37,280 bases of DNA from Actinomycetota bacterium (GTDB lineage: Bacteria; Actinomycetota; Actinomycetes; Actinomycetales; Microbacteriaceae), in contig JBDKLA010000002.1 in assembly GCA_039795835.1 (NCBI GenBank), positions 1-37,280 of the forward strand. The letters run 5' to 3'. The notes under the pieces were generated by a model. That model was not told where the DNA came from, did not search any database, and saw nothing but the letters and a program-made list of their open reading frames with translations. Positions 11,185 to 37,280 of this stretch are shown one piece after another. Position 1 is the stretch's first letter. The number at the start of each line of letters is the position of its first letter. The position numbers and the translations under genes are program-made.

Positions 11185-12468
11185 TTAGCGCTTTAGATAC
11201 CAGCGAGGGTCAGACTCCGAATAGGCTGCCTCGCCGTGAACTACTAGGTCAACACCGGCGATTTCGTCGGTGCTTTTCACTCGGAAACCGATGGTTTTCT
11301 GGATGATCCAGCCGAGTGCATAGCTGATTAGGAAGGCGTAGAGGCCCACAACAACGACACCGATCGCCTGCTTTCCGAGCTGCGAGAAGTCACCGGTTTG
11401 GAAGACTCCAACGTACTTTCCGCCAACCTGGCCAACCAGGCCGATAAACAGCGTTCCGATGATTCCACCGACGAGGTGAATACCCACGACGTCAAGTGAG
11501 TCATCGTAGCCGAGAAGGAACTTCCATTCGATTGCCCAACCACAGAAAGCACCGACGATAATTCCGAGAACTAGTGCCCAGACAGGGCTTAGGAAGCCAC
11601 AGGAAGGAGTAATCGCAACCATACCGGCAACCGCTCCAGACGCAGCACCGACGGCGGTTGGCTTGCCATGAGCGAGACGCTCGTAGACCGACCAGGCGAT
11701 AAGGCCGCCAACACCGGCTGCGAGAGTGTTTACGAACGCTAGAGACGCTGTGCCATCGGCTGCCAATTCGCTACCCGCGTTGAAGCCGAACCAGCCGAAC
11801 CAGAGAATTCCAGCACCAATCAGGGTTAGCGGAACGTTGTGGGGTGCGTGCATACCCTTACGGAAACCGAAACGCTTTCCGAGAACGAGCGCGAGGGCCA
11901 ACGCTGACGCTCCCGAGGCGATCTCAACGACCGTTCCACCGGCAAAGTCGAGCAGGCCGACGTCCTTGACTAGCCAACCGCCCTCGGTAATCACGCCGTT
12001 CTGGACTTTGAAGTTGAAGACCCAGCCAGCCGCTGGGAAGTAAACGATGGTGGCCCAGAGAGCGGCGAACAGCATCCACGAACCGAACTTTGCGCGGTCG
12101 GCGATTGCTCCGGAAATGAGAGCAACAGTGATGATGGCAAAGGTTCCCTGGAAGCCTGCGAAGGCGAGGTCAACGCCGTCCGAAGTGTTGTGAACCGCGA
12201 CTAGTTGCGTGAGGCCGATTTGATCAAGACTGATGCCAATAACACCGGGGATTCCGTGGAAAGAGGCGTCATTTGGGCGAGCAAAGGAAATCGCGTAACC
12301 GTAGAGCATCCAGAGCATGCCAATGAGACCGAGAGAGCCGAAACTCATCATCATCATCGACACCACAGACGACGCGCGAACCAATCCCCCGTAGAAGAAA
12401 GCCAACCCCGGTGTCATAAAGAGCACTAGGGCGCCGCAGAAGATGAGGAACATTGTTGTGTCGCTCAT
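11185..12468 (-). CDS. amt: Ammonium transporter (Amt family), Glu-His pore variant
   Basis: MTPGLAFFYGG, FQGTFAIITVALISGAIADR, DFAGGTVVE, WFGWFGFNAGS, DDSLDVVGIH, HGEAAY. Confidence 0.96.
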   Translation of the reverse strand: MSDTTMFLIFCGALVLFMTPGLAFFYGGLVRASSVVSMMMMSFGSLGLIGMLWMLYGYAISFARPNDASFHGIPGVIGISLDQIGLTQLVAVHNTSDGVDLAFAGFQGTFAIITVALISGAIADRAKFGSWMLFAALWATIVYFPAAGWVFNFKVQNGVITEGGWLVKDVGLLDFAGGTVVEIASGASALALALVLGKRFGFRKGMHAPHNVPLTLIGAGILWFGWFGFNAGSELAADGTASLAFVNTLAAGVGGLIAWSVYERLAHGKPTAVGAASGAVAGMVAITPSCGFLSPVWALVLGIIVGAFCGWAIEWKFLLGYDDSLDVVGIHLVGGIIGTLFIGLVGQVGGKYVGVFQTGDFSQLGKQAIGVVVVGLYAFLISYALGWIIQKTIGFRVKSTDEIAGVDLVVHGEAAYSESDPRWYLKR

Positions 12469-12491
12469 TCACTTTTCCTTTCTCGCACCAA

Positions 12492-12519
12492 GCGGAGGAG
12501 CCGAAATCGACTCCTCCGC
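12492..12519 (-). other. GC-rich stem-loop between the two amt genes, no U-tract
   Basis: GCGGAGGAGTCG-ATTT-CGGCTCCTCCGC on the - strand; 12-bp stem with one G-U pair. Confidence 0.7.
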
Positions 12520-12541
12520 AAGGTGGTACTTCTATTTAGTT

Positions 12542-13810
12542 TTAGCCTCGATCAGCACCGAAAGCGTAGGCCTCTTCACCGTGAACAACGGTGTCGATAC
12601 CGGCGATTTCGTCCTCAGCCTTTACTCGGAAACCAATGGTCTTTTCGATTGCGAAGCCGATGATTAGCGAAAGAGTGAAGCTGTAGAAGAGTACCGAGAA
12701 GGCACCGATGGCCTGGGCAGCGAGCTGGTCCCACTTACCGCTGTCTAGAAGGCCAACGCCAGTTCCGAAGAAACCGATGAACAAGGTACCAACGATTCCA
12801 CCCACTAGGTGAATACCAACAACGTCTAGCGAGTCGTCGAAACCGAAGGCGAACTTGAGGTCAACTGCGAGTGCACAGAGCACACCGGCTAGAACACCTA
12901 GAACCATCGCCCATAGTGGGGTGAGTGAAGCACAGGCTGGGGTAATTGCAACCAAACCTGCAACAGCACCGGAAGCAGCACCAATCGAAGTGGCCTTACC
13001 GTGCTTAATCTTCTCGATAAGGATCCAACCGAGCATCGCGGCAGCGGGTGCTGCCATGGTGTTGATGAATGCTAGCGATGCAACGCCATCAGCGGCAACT
13101 TCCGAGCCGGCGTTGAAGCCGAACCAACCGAACCAAAGCAGTGCGGTTCCAAGAAGGGTCAGCGGCACATTGTGAGGCTGCATGATTCCCTTTGAGAATC
13201 CGAAGCGCTTGCCGAGAACGATGGCTAGAGCAAGACCTGCGGCACCGGCGTTGATGTGAACTGCAGTTCCACCGGCGAAGTCAATTGCACCCACGTTGTT
13301 TACGATCCAACCACCGTCGGTAACTTTTCCATCCTTGAGGGTGAAGTTGAATACCCAGTTGGCTACTGGGAAGTAAACCAAGGTTGCCCAGATACCGGCG
13401 AAAACCATCCACGCACCGAACTTTGCGCGGTCAGCGATAGCACCCGAAATTAGAGCAACGGTGATGATTGCAAAGGTTGCCTGGAATGCAACGAATGCAA
13501 GTGATGGGTAGGTTCCGGTTGGAGCCAAAGCATCTTGAACCTGCGCTCCAAGACCGATGAAGCTGGTGTCAATTCCGAAGACGCCGTCCCAGCCGTAGAA
13601 AGTTTTTGATCCGCCGTTTGCAAATGCGATTGCGTAGCCGTAGAGCACCCAAAGAACGCCAATCAAACCGAGCGAGCCGAAGCTGAGCATCATCATGCTC
13701 ACTACCGACTTGGCCTTCACCATACCGCCGTAGAAGAACGCTAGTCCCGGCGTCATAAGTAGCACCAAAGCGGCACTAATCAGCACGAATGCTGTGTTTC
13801 CCTGATCCAT
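12542..13810 (-). CDS. amtB: Ammonium transporter AmtB (canonical twin-His)
   Basis: MDQGNTAF, MTPGLAFFYGG, DFAGGTAVHINAG, WFGWFGFNAGS, GIHLVGG; start at ATG 13810 after AGGAGAGAGG RBS. Confidence 0.97.
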   Translation of the reverse strand: MDQGNTAFVLISAALVLLMTPGLAFFYGGMVKAKSVVSMMMLSFGSLGLIGVLWVLYGYAIAFANGGSKTFYGWDGVFGIDTSFIGLGAQVQDALAPTGTYPSLAFVAFQATFAIITVALISGAIADRAKFGAWMVFAGIWATLVYFPVANWVFNFTLKDGKVTDGGWIVNNVGAIDFAGGTAVHINAGAAGLALAIVLGKRFGFSKGIMQPHNVPLTLLGTALLWFGWFGFNAGSEVAADGVASLAFINTMAAPAAAMLGWILIEKIKHGKATSIGAASGAVAGLVAITPACASLTPLWAMVLGVLAGVLCALAVDLKFAFGFDDSLDVVGIHLVGGIVGTLFIGFFGTGVGLLDSGKWDQLAAQAIGAFSVLFYSFTLSLIIGFAIEKTIGFRVKAEDEIAGIDTVVHGEEAYAFGADRG

Positions 13811-13863
13811 TTGTTTACCTCTCTCCTTGAAAACAAATGCACACAGCGTTGGGTGCATGGGTC

Positions 13864-30402: not shown

Positions 30403-32484
30403 CTAAGCGTCGATTTTGTCGGTGTCGAACGCGTCGGCCGAGTCAATGATGAAATCACGTCTTGGGGCAACGTCATTTCCCATCAGGAGTTCGAACACCT
30501 TCTCGGCGGCCTGGGCGTCTTCAACCCGCACACGGCGAAGAGTACGTCGCTCACGATCCATGGTGGTCTCTGCCAACTGATCGGCATCCATCTCACCAAG
30601 ACCCTTGTAGCGCTGAATTGGCTCTTGGTAACGCTTTCCCTGCGATGCCAACTTGGCTAGAACTGCCTCGAGTTCGGCCTGCGAATAGGTGTAGAGGGTT
30701 TCATTGGCCTTTGAGCCAGGGTTAATGACCACAACGCGATGTAGCGGTGGAACGGCCGCAAAAACTCGCCCAGCCTCAACCAGCGGCTTCATGTAGCGGA
30801 AGAAAAGGGTTAGCAGCAGCGTGCGAATGTGAGCACCATCGACATCTGCATCGCTCATGAGGATTACCTTGCCGTAGCGGGCCGCCTCAAGCTCGAAGCT
30901 ACGACCGGAACCCGCACCGATGACCTGAATGATTGATGCGCACTCGGCGTTTGAAAGCATGTCGGAAACCGAGGCCTTCTGCACATTGAGGATCTTTCCT
31001 CGAATTGGAAGGAGAGCCTGGTACTCACTGTTGCGGGCTAGTTTGGCTGTGCCTAGGGCCGAGTCACCCTCAACGATAAAGAGCTCGGAAACGTCGGTTT
31101 CCTGGGTTCTACAGTCCACCAGCTTGGTAGGTAGCGAGGACGACTCGAGCGCATTCTTACGTCGCTGGGTTTCCTTGTGAGTTCTCGCCGAGATTCGAGA
31201 CTTCATTTCAGCAACGATCTTCTCCAGTAGCAGGGCCGACTGTGCCTTGTCGTCTCGCTTGCTGCTGGTTAGGCGTTCGGTTAGTGCCTTTGCCACAACA
31301 TTGGCAACGATGTTTCGAACTGCTGGAGTTCCCAAGATTTCCTTGGTTTGGCCCTCAAACTGTGGTTCGGCCAGTCTCACCGAAACCACTGCTGTGAGTC
31401 CGGCGAGAATGTCTTCCTTCTCCACCTTGTCGTTTCCGAGTTTGAGCTTTCGGGCGTTGGAGTCAATCTGGCCGCGTAGAGCCTTCATGAGACCGGTTTC
31501 GAAACCGGCAACGTGCGTTCCACCCTTAGGTGTGGCAATGATGTTTACGAACGACTTCACCTCGGAGTCGTAACCGGTACCCCAGCGCAAGGCAACCTCA
31601 ACCTGGGCGTTACGTTCCACCTCACGGGAAACCATGTTGCCAGATTCATCGAGAACCGGAACTGTTTCGGTAAAGGCCCCGTCTCCGAGAATGCGCCAGG
31701 TGCTGGTTAGCGGTGTGTCCTTGGCTAGGAACTCGGCAAACTCGGTCAGTCCGCCGTCAAACTTGAACTTGTGCTCAACCGGTTCTGCCTGTCGTTCATC
31801 ACGAACGGAGAGGGCCAAGCCACTAACCAGAAACGCGGTCTGACGGGCACGACCGATCAGGTCGTCTAACTCAAAATTGGCGTCCTTGATGAAAATCTGC
31901 GGGTCGGTCCAGTAGCGAACGCGTGAACCCGTGACGTCCTTGCCAACCTTGCCAACTTCGCGGAGCTTGCTTTCGTCTTCGAACGGGGTGAACGGGTTAT
32001 CGGCCGAGATGCCCTTCGAGTCATCGAAAATTCCAGGCTCTCCCCTGCGGAAAGACATCGCGTAAGTTTTGCCACCGCGGTCAACCTCTACATCAAGACG
32101 AGCCGACAGAGCGTTAACAACCGAGGCACCAACACCGTGAAGACCACCGGATGCAGCATAAGATCCGGAACCGAACTTTCCACCCGCGTGGAGCTTGGTA
32201 AATACAACTTCCACGCCGGTCAAACCAGTTTTTGGCTCGATGTCTACTGGGATACCGCGTGCCTTGTCGCGCACCTCAACCGAGCCGTCCTTGTGAAGGA
32301 TGACATCGATGGTGTTACCGAAGCCGGCCAGCGCTTCATCAACAGAGTTGTCGATAATTTCCCAGAGGCAATGCATCAGGCCTCGAGAGTCGGTAGAACC
32401 GATGTACATTCCCGGACGCTTGCGAACGGCTTCGAGACCCTCTAGGACAGATAAATGGCGGGCTGAGTAGTCGTTGGTTGGCAC
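30403..32484 (-). CDS. parE: DNA topoisomerase IV subunit B
   Basis: LEGLEAVRKRPGMYIGS, EIIDNSVDE, LHAGGKF, VEGDSALG, PIRGKILN, DADVDGAHI, RYKGLGEM; start moved to GTG 32484. Confidence 0.92.
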   Translation of the reverse strand: MPTNDYSARHLSVLEGLEAVRKRPGMYIGSTDSRGLMHCLWEIIDNSVDEALAGFGNTIDVILHKDGSVEVRDKARGIPVDIEPKTGLTGVEVVFTKLHAGGKFGSGSYAASGGLHGVGASVVNALSARLDVEVDRGGKTYAMSFRRGEPGIFDDSKGISADNPFTPFEDESKLREVGKVGKDVTGSRVRYWTDPQIFIKDANFELDDLIGRARQTAFLVSGLALSVRDERQAEPVEHKFKFDGGLTEFAEFLAKDTPLTSTWRILGDGAFTETVPVLDESGNMVSREVERNAQVEVALRWGTGYDSEVKSFVNIIATPKGGTHVAGFETGLMKALRGQIDSNARKLKLGNDKVEKEDILAGLTAVVSVRLAEPQFEGQTKEILGTPAVRNIVANVVAKALTERLTSSKRDDKAQSALLLEKIVAEMKSRISARTHKETQRRKNALESSSLPTKLVDCRTQETDVSELFIVEGDSALGTAKLARNSEYQALLPIRGKILNVQKASVSDMLSNAECASIIQVIGAGSGRSFELEAARYGKVILMSDADVDGAHIRTLLLTLFFRYMKPLVEAGRVFAAVPPLHRVVVINPGSKANETLYTYSQAELEAVLAKLASQGKRYQEPIQRYKGLGEMDADQLAETTMDRERRTLRRVRVEDAQAAEKVFELLMGNDVAPRRDFIIDSADAFDTDKIDA

Positions 32485-32554
32485 AAAGAAGATGCTAGCC
32501 GAGCCGAAGCACTTGCTCCCTGACTGACACACTGCTAAATAGACTGATAAGACC

Positions 32555-33142
32555 ATGAACGATCGAGTGCAGCCAGGGCAACTACGGCGCGAGCTGCGTT
32601 TCTCACGTTCAACAATCTCTCAGAACCTAGAGTCCATCGGCGTTTCCATGGACGAAGTGAAACCTCTACTGGAAGCATTCATGACCACGAACGGCCTCCT
32701 GGGCCTCTACGGCAGCGAACTGCTACTGGCCGAGAAGGCCTTAGGTATCTCAGCGGGGACTCCAGCCGTTGACCTGGTTGGTGAGTTGGTCTCGGTCAAA
32801 CAAGTACCAGCGGGCACGGGTGTGTCTTACGGCTACCTCTCCAGAACCAGTACCGAGACCAATTTGGGGTTAGTCGGAATTGGCTTCTCAGACGGAATTC
32901 CCAGATCGGCAACCAACCAAATCAAACTTTCTATCTCCGGTCAAAGCTATCGGGGCCTTGGACGCATCGCCATGGACCAGTGCATCGTCGATTTGGGTCA
33001 GGATTCGCCAAAACTCGGTGCCGAAGTTTCCTTCTTTAGTCGCGAGTTCAGTCTTAGCGACTGGGCTCGGGCGTCTGGATTTAGCCAGCTCGAAATCCTC
33101 GGTCGAATCACCGATCGAGTTGTTAGAACGTGGTCCGAATGA
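32555..33142 (+). CDS. Alanine racemase C-terminal-domain protein (has catalytic Tyr, lacks PLP barrel)
   Basis: VKQVPAGTGVSYGY, IGFSDGIPR, GRIAMDQCIVD, EILGRITDRVVRTW; no VKADAYGHG motif. Confidence 0.88.
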   Translation: MNDRVQPGQLRRELRFSRSTISQNLESIGVSMDEVKPLLEAFMTTNGLLGLYGSELLLAEKALGISAGTPAVDLVGELVSVKQVPAGTGVSYGYLSRTSTETNLGLVGIGFSDGIPRSATNQIKLSISGQSYRGLGRIAMDQCIVDLGQDSPKLGAEVSFFSREFSLSDWARASGFSQLEILGRITDRVVRTWSE

Positions 33143-34149
33143 CGGTAACCAAACACGTTGACCTTTTGGCCTACAAAGAAAATCTGAAACTCATCGGCGA
33201 GCTGGTGAGCCCAGCAAAGTTGATGGCGGTAATCAAGGCCGATGCCTACGGTCATGGGTTGATCGAAATAGCTCAGGCGGCCGAAGAATTTGGAGTTGAT
33301 TCACTCGGGGTTCTCGACATCGAAACAGGTCTAAAGATTCGAAAAGCCGGGGTCAAGACCCCTGCCTTTGCATGGTTGCACTCTCCAGAAAGCAACTTCA
33401 CCGCGGCAGTAAAGGCTGGCATCGAACTCTCGGTGAGTTCATTGGCAGAACTAAAAAGAATTTCAATCGTCCAGGGCCGCGCAAAAGTTCACCTAAAGAT
33501 TGACACCGGATTGAGCCGTAACGGTTGCCGACCTGAAGACTGGTACGAATTGGTTTCTGAGGCTAGAGCCATTGAAGATTCAGGGTCGATTGACCTGGTG
33601 GCAATCTGGTCGCATCTTTCTGGAACGAGCCAGCAGGACGACGAAACAGCGATTGGCAAATTCGAAGACGCACACAGGATTGCCGTTGAACTTGGTTTCA
33701 AAGGTTACCGTCACATCGCTTCCAGCCCAGCAGCATTCAATCTTCCTAAGAGTAGATACGAACTGGTTCGCATCGGTGTTAGTGCTTTTGGAACATCGCC
33801 TGTAGAGGGAAAGCCAGCCAGTGACTTGGGTCTCAAGATTCCAATGCGATTGACCGCTGAAGTTCTGGCTCCCGAAGTGATTTCCATCGGCTTCCTGCAC
33901 GGCTACTTCAGTCAACTTGCCGGAAAAGCCCAAGTGTCGATTGCTGGCAAGCTTTACCCAGTAAACAAGATTGGACCTCTAGCAAGTTCGATTGGTCCAG
34001 GCGATTACAACCCCGGTGACGAAGTTTTGATTCTTGGCACAGAACCCGACCTTGCCCCCACTGCCGAGGATCTTTGTGAACTGGTTTCAACAGTGACCGA
34101 TGAACTCTTCACCGGACTCAAGCCAAACCTAACTTCGTACTCTGGCTAG
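33139..34149 (+). CDS. Alanine racemase family PLP enzyme with degenerate C-terminal domain
   Basis: AVIKADAYGHG (PLP Lys33), HLKIDTGLSRNG, WSHL, HIASS, VRIG; lacks VSYG and GRxxMD motifs; ATGA overlap with the upstream gene. Confidence 0.9.
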   Translation: MTVTKHVDLLAYKENLKLIGELVSPAKLMAVIKADAYGHGLIEIAQAAEEFGVDSLGVLDIETGLKIRKAGVKTPAFAWLHSPESNFTAAVKAGIELSVSSLAELKRISIVQGRAKVHLKIDTGLSRNGCRPEDWYELVSEARAIEDSGSIDLVAIWSHLSGTSQQDDETAIGKFEDAHRIAVELGFKGYRHIASSPAAFNLPKSRYELVRIGVSAFGTSPVEGKPASDLGLKIPMRLTAEVLAPEVISIGFLHGYFSQLAGKAQVSIAGKLYPVNKIGPLASSIGPGDYNPGDEVLILGTEPDLAPTAEDLCELVSTVTDELFTGLKPNLTSYSG

Positions 34150-34836
34150 AATCGCAGCTCTGGCTTTCTTCGCAAGCCGATCGAACGTATCGGCGGTCTT
34201 TGGCTTCACATACTTCGGGAAAACCCAAGAAAGCAGTCGATCGGCCAGTTGCGGGTTCATGGGCAGAAGTGGTCCCTGTACATTGCTTGCCATGACTTTG
34301 CCGTCCTGGTAGCCGTCTACATAACCAACCAAACCTGCGTTGTCAGAAGAACGAACTATGCCGAGTTCCATACCAGGCGCTCCCCTTACGATCAAACGGT
34401 TTGAGTTCACGAAGCCCGCAAAACTTTCAGATAACCAGACTTCACCAACCAGATAAGAAGCCGCAAACTTGTGCTCGGTATTGGTAAGACCCAAACCTTC
34501 CAGGACCGAGCCATCTGGAAGTTCAAGACTTTTGGAAACGAGATCGAACCCAGCTCCAACCGCTAGAACTTTCAATCCCTGTGCGATCCAGGCATGAATT
34601 TGTAGATCTTTCTTGGCGAGGTCGGCGTGAGCTACCTTGGTAGCCGAAAATGTTCCAGAGCCGATAAAGATCAAATGTGGTCGATTCGCAGGTAGAGACT
34701 CCCCGACCTCTAAGGTGGAAACCTTGACCGAGTAACCGGCCAATTCTGCTCGCAACTTCAGCGCGGCAACGTTGCCCCTTTCGCCGTTGAGACGAAGGGT
34801 TTCTGGATAGAGGTGCAGGATTCTGAACTCAGCCAT
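34129..34836 (-). CDS. gatD: GatD/CobQ-like class I glutamine amidotransferase-fold protein, catalytically degenerate
   Basis: LYPETLRLNGERGN, FIGSG, EGLG, GPLLPMNPQLADRLL; nucleophile site reads AVGAG and His site reads NVQGP. Confidence 0.85.
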   Translation of the reverse strand: MAEFRILHLYPETLRLNGERGNVAALKLRAELAGYSVKVSTLEVGESLPANRPHLIFIGSGTFSATKVAHADLAKKDLQIHAWIAQGLKVLAVGAGFDLVSKSLELPDGSVLEGLGLTNTEHKFAASYLVGEVWLSESFAGFVNSNRLIVRGAPGMELGIVRSSDNAGLVGYVDGYQDGKVMASNVQGPLLPMNPQLADRLLSWVFPKYVKPKTADTFDRLAKKARAAILARVRS

Positions 34837-36085
34837 TGCCACCCTCTAAATCCAACAGACCGAGTTTCTTACGAAGCCACATCATTTGCTCGTAATTCAC
34901 GATGGCGGTTTTCTCAGTTCCTGGAAGTTTCAAGAAATACTCGAGCGCCTCGGACTCGTTCTCGATTAGTTTCATGACTGGAATCCTCTCGAAGGCAAGT
35001 CGAGTGGCCCACTGATATGTCTTGGTGCCAGAAACTACATCAACGCGATCAAGATTCGATAGGTCAATGTCGTAGATCCATGAAGGGTCGGGTGTTCCTT
35101 CGTCGACCGATATCCAAACTCGTTTGGGAACGGTCTCGAGAGCATCTAGATTCGCTTGAAGGCTAGGAAGATTCTTCATCATGATGATTTCGATCTTTTG
35201 ACCCTGATGCTCAATCACTTCTCCGCGTCCGTAAACGGCAGGAAGATCAGAAATAGCTGAACCCGCAACCTTGGCCTGAAACTTAGTTCCGAGAATTTTC
35301 TTGGCCATTCCAATTGCCAAAGCGGCATCAACCGCATAGTGAAGGCCGGGAGCCGGCAAGGTAACCGAGAGCTTGTCACTCTCAATTTTGAGCGTCGCGA
35401 CCCTACCCTTGGCATCTACCAAAGTCACCGAGGAATCAAGGTTGGATTCATCCTTAGTGAAACTTGGCGCTGCCAAAATTCCGTGTTGAGCAGACTTTCG
35501 AGCCTTGTCCGATAGGTAAATTCCCTGAACGTTCAATCTCGAAGAATTCTCACGTCCAAGCCGCTCGGTGTTTGGATCTTCACCGTTAACCACTAGGAAA
35601 TCGGTCGTCAACGCCGCTAGTTCATTCAGGTAAACGTAGACATCTTCAGGTGAATGGAAACGGTTCAACTGATCGAGCTGGATGTTGGTCAGAAGCAATC
35701 CATTAGGTGCAACCTTCGCTGCAATCAACTTGCCATAGGCCTCATCGACTTCGAGAACGGCCACGTCATGTTCTAGCCGTCCCAGGTAGTTCACATCGGC
35801 AAGTAGGGCCGAAGCTAAACCCTGTGGCAGGTTACCGCCAGCTGGGTTAGAAAGAACCTTGAGACCGTGATCTCGCAGAATTTTGACCAGCATGGCTGTG
35901 GTCGTTGATTTCCCATTGGAACCACTCACGAAATAGATGCCGGAAGACATTCGACCGAGCGTTTTCTGCAGAAAACGAGGTTGAATCGCAAGCGCTAGTC
36001 GGCCAGGAACTGCTGAACCACCACCGCGAAGCCTGAGGACAAAGCGGGCAGCCTTGCCAACCAGGACCGCGAGTGGTGTAAGCAT
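34829..36085 (-). CDS. murT: MurT-like Mur ligase (DUF1727 domain)
   Basis: GGSAVPG, P-loop GSNGKSTT, SNPAGGN, LEVDE, DQLNRF, GRGE, MKN, DPSWIYD, NYEQMMWLRK. Confidence 0.88.
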   Translation of the reverse strand: MLTPLAVLVGKAARFVLRLRGGGSAVPGRLALAIQPRFLQKTLGRMSSGIYFVSGSNGKSTTTAMLVKILRDHGLKVLSNPAGGNLPQGLASALLADVNYLGRLEHDVAVLEVDEAYGKLIAAKVAPNGLLLTNIQLDQLNRFHSPEDVYVYLNELAALTTDFLVVNGEDPNTERLGRENSSRLNVQGIYLSDKARKSAQHGILAAPSFTKDESNLDSSVTLVDAKGRVATLKIESDKLSVTLPAPGLHYAVDAALAIGMAKKILGTKFQAKVAGSAISDLPAVYGRGEVIEHQGQKIEIIMMKNLPSLQANLDALETVPKRVWISVDEGTPDPSWIYDIDLSNLDRVDVVSGTKTYQWATRLAFERIPVMKLIENESEALEYFLKLPGTEKTAIVNYEQMMWLRKKLGLLDLEGGNG

Positions 36086-37280
36086 TAGTTGCCGCGGAAC
36101 TCGCTAAGACGCTGAGCGCGGGTTGGGTGCTTCAGCTTAGAAATCGCCTTGTTCTCAATCTGACGAATACGTTCACGAGTAACACCGATCTCCTCACCAA
36201 TCTGGTCAAGAGTCTTCGGGATTCCGTCGATAAGTCCGTAGCGGTGACGAAGAATCGTAGCCTCGCGTTCGCTCATGGTCGAAAGAATTCGCTCAAGTTC
36301 ACGCTTGCGAGCCGCAGCGGTTACCGCCTCGAGTGGGCTAACCGCTTCGGTGTCTTCGATGAGGTCTCCGAACTCGCTGTCGCCATCCTCGCCAAGTGGT
36401 GTGCTGAGCGAGATCGGTTCACGACCGTACTTCTGAACCTCAACGACCTTTTCAGGGGTCATGTCTAGCTCACGGGCTAGTTCCTCTGGGGTCGGTTCGC
36501 GTCCGAGATCCTGAAGCAACTGACGCTGAACACGTGCCAGCTTGTTAATGACTTCAACCATGTGAACTGGGATACGAATGGTTCGAGCCTGGTCTGCCAT
36601 AGCGCGGGTGATGGCCTGACGAATCCACCAGGTGGCATAGGTAGAGAACTTATAACCCTTGGTGTAGTCAAACTTCTCAACCGCACGGATTAGACCGAGG
36701 TTACCTTCTTGAATTAGGTCAAGGAACTGCATTCCACGACCGGTGTAACGCTTTGCTAGTGAAACAACGAGTCGAAGGTTCGCTTCCAGAAGGTGGCTCT
36801 TGGCTCGTTCACCATCCTTGAGTACACGCTTTAGGTCGTAGAGCATTTCCTTGCTGAACTTCGCCTTTGGATCCGCAAGCTTCTGGGCGGCGTAAAGACC
36901 GGCCTCAATGCGCTTGGCAAGTTCAACCTCAAGCTCGGCGTTTAGAAGTGCAACCTTACCAATTTGCTTTAGGTAGTCCTTTACCGGGTCGGCAGTAGCG
37001 CCATTGATTGCCGCGGTTTGAACCGGAATATCATCGACTTCTTTATTACTGAGAACGAATCCACCACCGGCTTCAACGGCCTTCTCTTTTTCTTTGGCGT
37101 CTGGATCGTCGTGGTGCTCGTCGTCCTCGGGGTGCTCATCGATTACTTCGGTGATGTCAACTTCGGCCGATGCTTCTTTGACGATGTCCTCTACGGATAA
37201 GTCTTCGTCTTCTAGATCGTCTTCGTCGTCGCCCTCGGCCATACCCTTAGGTAACTTGGCGGACTTGGTTGCAGTCTTGG
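36085..37280 (-). CDS. rpoD: Primary RNA polymerase sigma factor (HrdB/SigA); 5' end lies beyond the window
   Basis: [69 protein letters not shown]; frame stays open to the window end. Confidence 0.97.

What the first reader, a model, noticed from the sequence alone, without database searches (positions are those of the whole stretch)
32555..36085. Candidate biosynthetic module for the group B peptidoglycan cross-bridge: two-part racemase plus repurposed MurT and glutaminase-dead GatD
Seen in sequence: four tightly packed genes (two Alr-like genes on +, murT-gatD on -, 3' ends overlapping by 21 nt), each departing from its canonical family in a coordinated way. Established: MurT-GatD amidates the alpha-carboxyl of D-Glu2 in lipid II using ATP and glutamine-derived ammonia. 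Microbacteriaceae have group B peptidoglycan, in which that same alpha-carboxyl carries a diamino-acid bridge (D-Orn or D-2,4-diaminobutyrate in B2 types). Inference: MurT still activates the D-Glu alpha-carboxylate, but the nucleophile is a D-diamino acid made by the adjacent racemase pair. Ammonia would then be unnecessary, which explains the decayed GatD. I know of no description of the enzyme for this step, but I cannot search the literature here.
Basis: partly seen in the sequence, partly recalled or inferred. Interest (0 to 1): 0.93.

Follow-up and report, generated by a model that had tools for sequence, protein, structure and literature searches.

The report
Likely group B wall bridge enzymes
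This freshwater actinobacterium carries an intact cell-wall ligase paired with a partner that lacks its glutamine-splitting residues, next to a racemase whose two catalytic residues sit on separate genes; together they likely make and attach the diamino-acid bridge of the unusual 'group B' bacterial wall, a step for which our literature searches found no enzyme.

Summary
Observation confirmed. MurT keeps its ATP and carboxyl-activating residues; GatD has Gly and Gln at the catalytic Cys and His; the Alr pair splits the PLP lysine and catalytic tyrosine between two genes, and the lysine subunit has Tyr354→Asp. The host shares a genus with Rhodoluna lacicola (B2β wall). Comparative tests mostly support the ligase idea: 132 of 132 Microbacteriaceae GatDs at this rpoD–parE slot lack Cys, against 0 of 49 in ten other families of the order. 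Cys-less GatD arose independently in Eubacterium limosum and Acetobacterium (group B, recalled), while Pseudoramibacter is canonical. Where murT-gatD is missing, the slot usually holds another amide ligase (CofE-like ± ATP-grasp). Corrections: GatD is under purifying selection, not decaying; His loss is not general; the racemase is not universal and MurT is one of several solutions. Against: no biochemistry; some family members lack the module; Cys-less GatDs also occur in taxa of unknown wall; R. lacicola is reported with D-Dab but has no second racemase. The scan noted the same module twice before on other DNA; the Eubacteriales, CofE/ATP-grasp and Tyr354 evidence was worked out here.

The parts
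32555..33142 (+). alrC: truncated Alr paralogue that keeps the catalytic Tyr92 (codon 32828-32830) and Met140-Asp141, and has lost the PLP lysine and most of the barrel
   Evidence: Ser91-Tyr92-Gly93 and Met140 invariant in 42 of 42
33139..34149 (+). alrN: Alr paralogue with PLP Lys33 (codon 33235-33237), catalytic-Tyr loop deleted, Asp321 (codon 34099-34101) at the position of the pocket tyrosine (Tyr354 in the usual numbering, recalled)
   Evidence: Lys33 invariant in 47 of 47; predicted to pair with AlrC
34129..34836 (-). gatD*: class I glutamine-amidotransferase fold with Gly94 for Cys, Gln187 for His, GSG for GGG; under purifying selection
34829..36085 (-). murT: Mur-family ligase with ATP site and carboxylate-activating residues intact, no zinc ribbon, Arg135 position changed to Leu
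   Evidence: residue roles from PMC6085368 section 11
36085..37280 (-). context: rpoD (primary sigma factor), directly upstream of murT; upstream boundary of the conserved slot
30403..32556 (-). context: parE/gyrB-like gene, downstream boundary of the conserved slot

Best explanation
MurT, likely held together by a catalytically dead GatD, likely uses ATP to activate the alpha-carboxyl of D-Glu2 of the stem peptide and joins it to a diamino acid instead of ammonia, and the AlrN-AlrC pair is predicted to form a one-site racemase that likely supplies the D-form of that diamino acid. Shown: intact MurT catalytic residues, loss of the GatD nucleophile, reciprocal loss of the two racemase catalytic residues, an acidic residue replacing the pocket tyrosine, selection on all four genes, and the distribution. 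Inferred: an acyl-phosphate intermediate as in Mur ligases; lipid I/II as acceptor (canonical MurT-GatD acts only on these, PMC6085368); the D-diamino acid (Dab most likely in this genus, else Orn or Lys) joined through its side-chain amine, leaving the alpha-amine for later transpeptidation to D-Ala4; GatD kept because MurT is unstable without it. MurT-GatD* is one of several interchangeable ligases for this step: a CofE-like enzyme, or imported Firmicutes-type MurT-GatD*, can fill the same slot, and an ATP-grasp enzyme is added where a longer bridge is probably built.
For: (1) 132 of 132 family GatDs seen next to rpoD/parE lack Cys; all 14 Cys-bearing family GatDs lie elsewhere (loci, a few genomes twice). 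(2) 49 of 49 GatDs read from ten other families of the order have Cys and His (50 loci read of 121 non-family matches). (3) Eubacteriales: 4 of 64 GatD loci have Cys; dead in E. limosum, E. maltosivorans, E. barkeri, A. woodii, A. carbinolicum, canonical in Pseudoramibacter alactolyticus. One clade of the two dead groups is rejected, p-AU 1.7e-9 (36 rows, LG+G4, quick search). (4) In 16 of 20 MurT-less genomes read, the slot holds a PF01996 CofE-like ligase, most with a PF14397 ATP-grasp gene and the Alr pair; CofE-like hits 48 of 301 genomes and overlaps the 212 GatD-positive relatives in 2. (5) Eubacteriales-type and Oscillospiraceae-type dead MurT-GatD have been imported into the same slot in Gryllotalpicola and Pseudolysinimonas. 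(6) An aminotransferase of the Dab-making type joins the slot in three loci (EctB label recalled). (7) Every AlrN row has Asp/Glu for the pocket tyrosine, as do unsplit tandem paralogues in Curtobacterium and Herbiconiux. (8) AlrN-AlrC model: score 0.94, best control 0.00, runs agree in at least 96% of contacts, partner pLDDT at least 88; the mark was reached by 116 of 157 solved and 2 of 215 mismatched pairs; Lys33 and Asp321 touch Met140/Asp141; the pass may reflect likeness to Alr homodimers. (9) A second Alr-type gene occurs in 35 of 38 genomes of the window's MurT clade and 3 of 22 of the other clade, which includes Agromyces; A. aureus is B2γ with L-Dab (PMC5217419). (10) MurT without GatD is fully degraded by trypsin (PMC6085368).
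Against: No enzyme assay exists. Canonical MurT-GatD can use free ammonia at pH 8.5 (PMC6085368). Four family genomes (proteins filed as Klugiella xanthotipulae, Humidisolicoccus flavus, Leucobacter sp. UCMA 4100, Agrococcus sp. KRD186) have an empty slot and no match to MurT or the CofE-like query; Lysinibacter, Leucobacter sp. Psy1 and Aurantimicrobium minutum have only canonical MurT-GatD, yet L. chironomi is reported B-type (PMC4511665); Lysinibacter's structure is listed as unknown (PMC7033078). Four complete same-genus genomes have only the canonical Alr, although R. lacicola is reported with a D-Ala-D-Dab peptide (PMC4156110). 14 of 90 Bacillota GatDs read lack Cys, and dead GatDs occur in Vescimonas and in Oscillospiraceae and Propionibacteriaceae MAGs whose walls are unknown to me. 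A. woodii and A. carbinolicum show one Alr-type match only. Species-level wall types of E. limosum, Acetobacterium and Pseudoramibacter are recalled; the review read lists Eubacterium as A or B2α at genus level (PMC11382707). The two MurT clades are one split, so item 9 is not a set of independent events; 34 of the 38 were assigned by profile score.
Confidence: 0.72

Rival explanations
1. MurT-GatD* still amidates a carboxyl group, using free ammonia, and the bridge is made by another enzyme; the racemase is a neighbour of related but separate purpose.
For: Ammonia can serve as direct donor in vitro and GatD is still needed then (PMC6085368); MurT Asp336 and often the GatD His are kept; some probable group B genera lack the module.
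Against: In group B walls the D-Glu alpha-carboxyl carries the bridge (established scheme, PMC11382707), so little is free to amidate; replacement by amino-acid ligases (CofE-like, ATP-grasp) at the same slot and independent Cys loss in Eubacteriales are unexplained.
Confidence: 0.08
2. MurT-GatD* is an amino-acid ligase of the D-Glu alpha-carboxyl, but its product is a side decoration or another residue (such as Gly) rather than the cross-linking diamino acid, and the racemase serves another ligase.
For: Dead GatDs in taxa of unknown wall; MurT-GatD* occurs together with CofE-like or ATP-grasp genes in some loci; Gly substitution of this carboxyl is known in Micrococcus luteus (recalled, not checked).
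Against: Genera with direct one-residue bridges (Curtobacterium, Agromyces, Leifsonia, Rhodoluna) have MurT-GatD* alone at the slot; the window genome shows no CofE-like or ATP-grasp match (72.5% complete).
Confidence: 0.12
3. The ligase reading is right but the Alr pair is not its supplier: it is a second alanine or serine racemase (annotation pipelines call such genes vanT), or has another PLP activity.
For: Same-genus genomes and Acetobacterium lack it; best PDB matches are alanine racemases; a 31%-identity 'vanT' call is reported in a family member (PMC12275160).
Against: A canonical Alr with the pocket tyrosine exists at C42; the acidic substitution is uniform; the pair stays at the slot when the ligase is swapped.
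Confidence: 0.08

Closest known systems
MurT/GatD lipid II isoglutaminyl synthase (S. aureus 6GS2/6H5E/5N9M, S. pneumoniae 6FQB, S. pyogenes 9SQ9)
   Same: Two-gene operon, folds, ATP site, carboxylate-activating residues, MurT Asp of the inter-subunit triad
   Different: GatD lacks Cys, His, GGG and Arg128; MurT lacks the zinc ribbon and Arg135; far below NCBIfam cut-offs; predicted nucleophile is an amino acid
Mur ligases MurC-F
   Same: ATP-dependent amide bond between a peptide carboxyl and an amino acid, the chemistry proposed here
   Different: They extend soluble UDP precursors along the stem; MurT has no UDP-binding domain and would branch from the D-Glu alpha-carboxyl
Alanine racemase Alr and its changed-specificity relatives (VanT serine racemase, lysine and broad-spectrum racemases)
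   Same: Fold-type III PLP enzyme, Lys/Tyr two-base site formed across two chains
   Different: Known members are homodimers with two sites (recalled); here Lys and Tyr are on different genes, giving one site, with Asp/Glu for the pocket tyrosine
F420-0:gamma-glutamyl ligase CofE (PF01996) and sugar-transfer ATP-grasp proteins (PF14397)
   Same: Nucleotide-dependent amide ligases; occupy this slot in relatives
   Different: Not in the window; no role in peptidoglycan was found in the searches made

Membership tests
MurT/GatD isoglutaminyl synthase | murT and gatD adjacent and co-oriented | tested here: met
MurT/GatD isoglutaminyl synthase | MurT P-loop Lys, Asn85, Glu110, Asp112/Glu113, Arg304 equivalents | tested here: met
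MurT/GatD isoglutaminyl synthase | GatD nucleophile Cys | tested here: not met
   Gly94
MurT/GatD isoglutaminyl synthase | GatD His and GGG oxyanion strand | tested here: not met
   Gln187, GSG
MurT/GatD isoglutaminyl synthase | NCBIfam equivalog cut-off | tested here: not met
   MurT 95.3 of 800 bits, GatD 62.9 of 450
MurT/GatD isoglutaminyl synthase | Glutamine-dependent amidation of lipid II | not testable with these tools
   needs an assay
Alanine racemase (alr equivalog) | PLP Lys and catalytic Tyr in one chain | tested here: not met
   split over two genes
Alanine racemase (alr equivalog) | Pocket tyrosine restricting the site to Ala (role recalled) | tested here: not met
   Asp321
Alanine racemase fold, two-chain active site | Lys chain and Tyr chain meet at one site | tested here: inconclusive
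   model passes (0.94 against 0.00) but may rest on likeness to solved homodimers
Group B peptidoglycan organism | Host belongs to a group B taxon | tested here: met
   same genus as G009, whose GatD is filed under Rhodoluna lacicola; B2β in PMC4156110; this genome's own wall was not analysed
Group B bridge ligase (proposed) | Ligation of a diamino acid to the D-Glu alpha-carboxyl | not testable with these tools
   needs an assay

The most novel reading that the evidence does not exclude
The rpoD-parE slot of Microbacteriaceae is the locus for group B cross-bridge synthesis, and its gene content reads out the bridge: a repurposed MurT with a dead GatD (evolved at least twice, also in Eubacterium/Acetobacterium) or a CofE-like ligase attaches the bridge to D-Glu, ATP-grasp enzymes lengthen it, and a one-site heterodimeric racemase sets the D-configuration. 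Group B walls could then be predicted from genomes, including uncultured gut Clostridia with dead GatD.
Probability: 0.6. Interest if true: 0.93.

Novelty: new variant of a known kind. Interest (0 to 1): 0.84.

Why it matters
Group B peptidoglycan defines Microbacteriaceae and a few Firmicutes, yet no enzyme for its 2-4 bridge turned up in the searches made. The module names concrete, purifiable candidates and makes the question directly testable. It would be a case of an amidotransferase turned into a peptide ligase by silencing its glutaminase, repeated independently, and of a homodimeric racemase split into complementary halves. It would also give functions to widely mis-annotated genes ('F420 ligase', 'vanT', 'CobQ') and a genomic predictor of wall type.

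Tried and rejected
Pseudogene/decay reading: rejected by pN far below pS and family-wide conservation. Frameshifted single Alr: rejected, because alrC lies upstream of alrN, both have own starts, and the pair recurs in both orientations. 'His loss is diagnostic': rejected (81 of 137 keep His). 'Racemase pair marks all group B': rejected. Single origin of dead GatD: rejected; minimum 6 changes on the 88-row FastTree, where one long-branch join was flagged. ESM Atlas gave only GATase_3 clusters; the same top cluster for this GatD and the E. limosum one is a lead only. Search for another ligase in empty-slot genomes found no GatD-like match and ATP-grasp matches only in an unrelated context. Erysipelotrichaceae (group B1, recalled) could not be reached by name. 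Literature: 0 papers held MurT+GatD+Microbacteriaceae; 0 held racemase+D-ornithine+peptidoglycan+Microbacteriaceae; two searches listed nothing on this step (listings only). No search was made for CofE-like or ATP-grasp genes in peptidoglycan. Schleifer & Kandler 1972, Willems & Collins 1996 and Perkins 1971 were not held, and most subscription taxonomy and biochemistry papers are outside the library, so prior description cannot be excluded. A mixture-model tree did not finish.
Full report
Observation. The four ORFs, strands and the 21-nt overlap are as stated. Families: Ala_racemase_C only for alrC; Ala_racemase_N with a weak C domain for alrN; GATase_3; Mur_ligase_M plus MurT_C; none reaches an equivalog cut-off. 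They lie between rpoD and parE. The genome (1.06 Mb, 72.5% complete) has a separate canonical Alr on contig C42 and no second MurT or GatD.

MurT and GatD. Against solved GatDs, Cys94 is Gly, His189 is Gln, GGG is GSG and Arg128 is Tyr. Published mutagenesis shows that Cys-to-Gly or Ser abolishes amidation (PMC6113224 passages; PMC6085368 passages). MurT keeps each residue shown or inferred to be needed for ATP use and carboxylate activation (PMC6085368 section 11), invariant in 19 relatives; its model (pLDDT 87.6) matches MurT structures best. It lacks the zinc ribbon, as do its closest canonical relatives, and the conserved Arg135 of the ammonia gate. All four genes are under purifying selection against L088. 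So GatD is a maintained dead subunit; MurT is degraded without GatD, which gives a reason to keep it.

Host. G000 is in the same genus as G009, whose GatD is filed under Rhodoluna lacicola; that species has a B2β (B10) wall with Dab (PMC4156110, passages).

Distribution in Actinomycetes. The GatD query matched 213 of 301 family genomes. Of 151 family loci with a GatD, 132 show rpoD or parE and none of these has Cys; the 14 Cys-bearing ones all lie elsewhere; His is kept in 81 of 137 Cys-less ones. Among 67 named family loci, 64 had a GatD and none had Cys. In the order, MurT_C matched 128 of 401 genomes; I read 50 of the 121 non-family loci, covering ten families, and 49 of 49 GatDs found had Cys and His.

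Independent lineage. A locus titled Eubacteriaceae (L154) had a dead GatD. In its order 85 of 102 genomes carry a MurT; of 64 GatD loci read (some genomes twice) 4 have Cys, 59 another residue, 1 is cut off. Dead copies belong to E. limosum, E. maltosivorans, E. barkeri, A. woodii and A. carbinolicum; canonical ones to Pseudoramibacter. I recall B2α walls for the former and a meso-DAP group A wall for P. alactolyticus; the review read (PMC11382707, section 4 part 1) gives only genus-level A and B2α for Eubacterium. The Eubacteriales MurT keeps the zinc ribbon and branches with Firmicutes; Microbacteriaceae MurT branches with canonical actinobacterial MurT; one clade is rejected (p-AU 1.7e-9). 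Control: of 96 matches in 301 Bacillota genomes I read 90; 76 have Cys and His, 14 lack Cys, two of them Eubacteriales-type, the rest of unknown wall type.

Replacement at the slot. The MurT profile missed 28 of 120 family genomes. In 20 such genomes the rpoD-parE interval held a CofE-like ligase in 16, mostly with one or two ATP-grasp genes, in two cases an aminotransferase, and usually the Alr pair; 4 were empty. CofE-like matched 48 of 301 genomes, overlapping the GatD-positive set in 2; 42 matched neither query, some of which have divergent MurT-GatD. Carriers include Microbacterium oxydans, M. saperdae, M. foliorum, Gulosibacter macacae and Parafrigoribacterium mesophilum. The two overlaps are cassettes of cofE-murT-gatD* of Eubacteriales type, one at the slot with the Alr pair. 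Five further loci hold a third dead type, at the slot. ATP-grasp genes also accompany MurT-GatD*. Unrelated amide ligases taking turns at one place is the strongest sign that the job is amino-acid ligation. Whether CofE plus ATP-grasp marks Gly-containing bridges could not be checked in the library.

Racemase. AlrN keeps the PLP lysine and has lost the tyrosine loop and the Met-Asp motif; AlrC keeps these and has lost the lysine. The pocket tyrosine of canonical Alr is Asp or Glu in each AlrN row and in unsplit paralogues beside alr in Curtobacterium and Herbiconiux, which suits a basic side chain (inference). The pair is predicted to bind with Lys33 and Asp321 against Met140/Asp141 (0.94 against best control 0.00; 116 of 157 solved and 2 of 215 mismatched pairs reach the mark; likeness to Alr homodimers may explain the pass). 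Family MurTs form two clades. A second Alr-type gene was found in 35 of 38 genomes of the window's clade (34 assigned by score) and 3 of 22 of the other (G093 and G014, which carry ATP-grasp genes, left out), and in 0 of 4 same-genus genomes. Agromyces aureus, of the second clade's genus, has L-Dab (PMC5217419, passage).

Against. No assay. Some family members have an empty slot or only canonical MurT-GatD, while a Leucobacter species is B-type (PMC4511665, passage); Lysinibacter's structure is unknown (PMC7033078, table passage). R. lacicola is reported with D-Dab but its genus-mates lack a second racemase. Acetobacterium shows one Alr-type match. Dead GatDs occur in taxa of unknown wall.

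Literature and earlier notes. Searches found no description of this step; PMC11915815 (passages), PMC12141560, PMC12275160, PMC6113628, PMC7524325 and PMC12029686 (passages) add none. Supplements were not read; those of the two structure papers could mention Cys-less GatD. Two earlier notes of this scan describe the same module on other DNA; they were seen after my reading was formed and are not counted as support.

Verdict. Real, conserved and most likely the group B bridge ligase with its diamino-acid racemase (0.72). Built from known families with changed chemistry, hence a new variant; high interest because it makes an old open step directly testable.

Noticed in passing
L230:1151-1840 (+) and L230:1905-2918 (-); also L224, L226-L229, L234, L236-L243: CofE-like ligase (PF01996) with zero, one or two ATP-grasp genes (PF14397) replaces murT-gatD* right after rpoD; a second candidate bridge-ligase system annotated as F420 ligase.
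   Followed up: partly
L291:3316-6111 (-): Cassette cofE-like, murT, dead gatD of Eubacteriales type inserted at the slot in a genome whose MurT is filed under Gryllotalpicola protaetiae.
   Followed up: partly
L282-L286; L280:2983-5036: A third type of dead MurT-GatD, shared by Pseudolysinimonas-like genomes, Vescimonas fastidiosa, Oscillospiraceae and Propionibacteriaceae MAGs; predicts an unusual wall in these gut taxa.
   Followed up: partly
L352, L354, L357, L358, L370: Small Bacillota genomes (1.4-1.7 Mb) with Cys-less GatD and a strongly diverged MurT C-terminal domain.
   Followed up: no
L200/L203 and L197/L201: Full-length Alr paralogue in tandem with alr in Curtobacterium and Herbiconiux, with Glu or Asp for the pocket tyrosine; likely the unsplit form of the racemase.
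   Followed up: partly
L202, L206, L216: Another Alr paralogue with His at the pocket-tyrosine position in Okibacterium, Herbiconiux and Amnibacterium.
   Followed up: no
L085:8989-11938: Canonical murT-gatD plus an M15 carboxypeptidase gene on a heavy-metal plasmid of Leifsonia shinshuensis; canonical second copies also in G063 and G148.
   Followed up: partly
L296:3265-7288: A 0.9-Mb reduced family genome (G012) keeps murT, Cys-less gatD and the split Alr pair.
   Followed up: no
L293:5858-6433, L295:2583-3113, L297, L298: Small freshwater relatives have GatD shortened to 177-211 aa.
   Followed up: no
L402:1108-2169 (-), L403: E. limosum and E. barkeri encode an ornithine-racemase-like protein (label recalled) far from murT-gatD.
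   Followed up: no
window 11185-13858: Two ammonium-transporter-like genes in tandem (read from sequence, not scanned).
   Followed up: no
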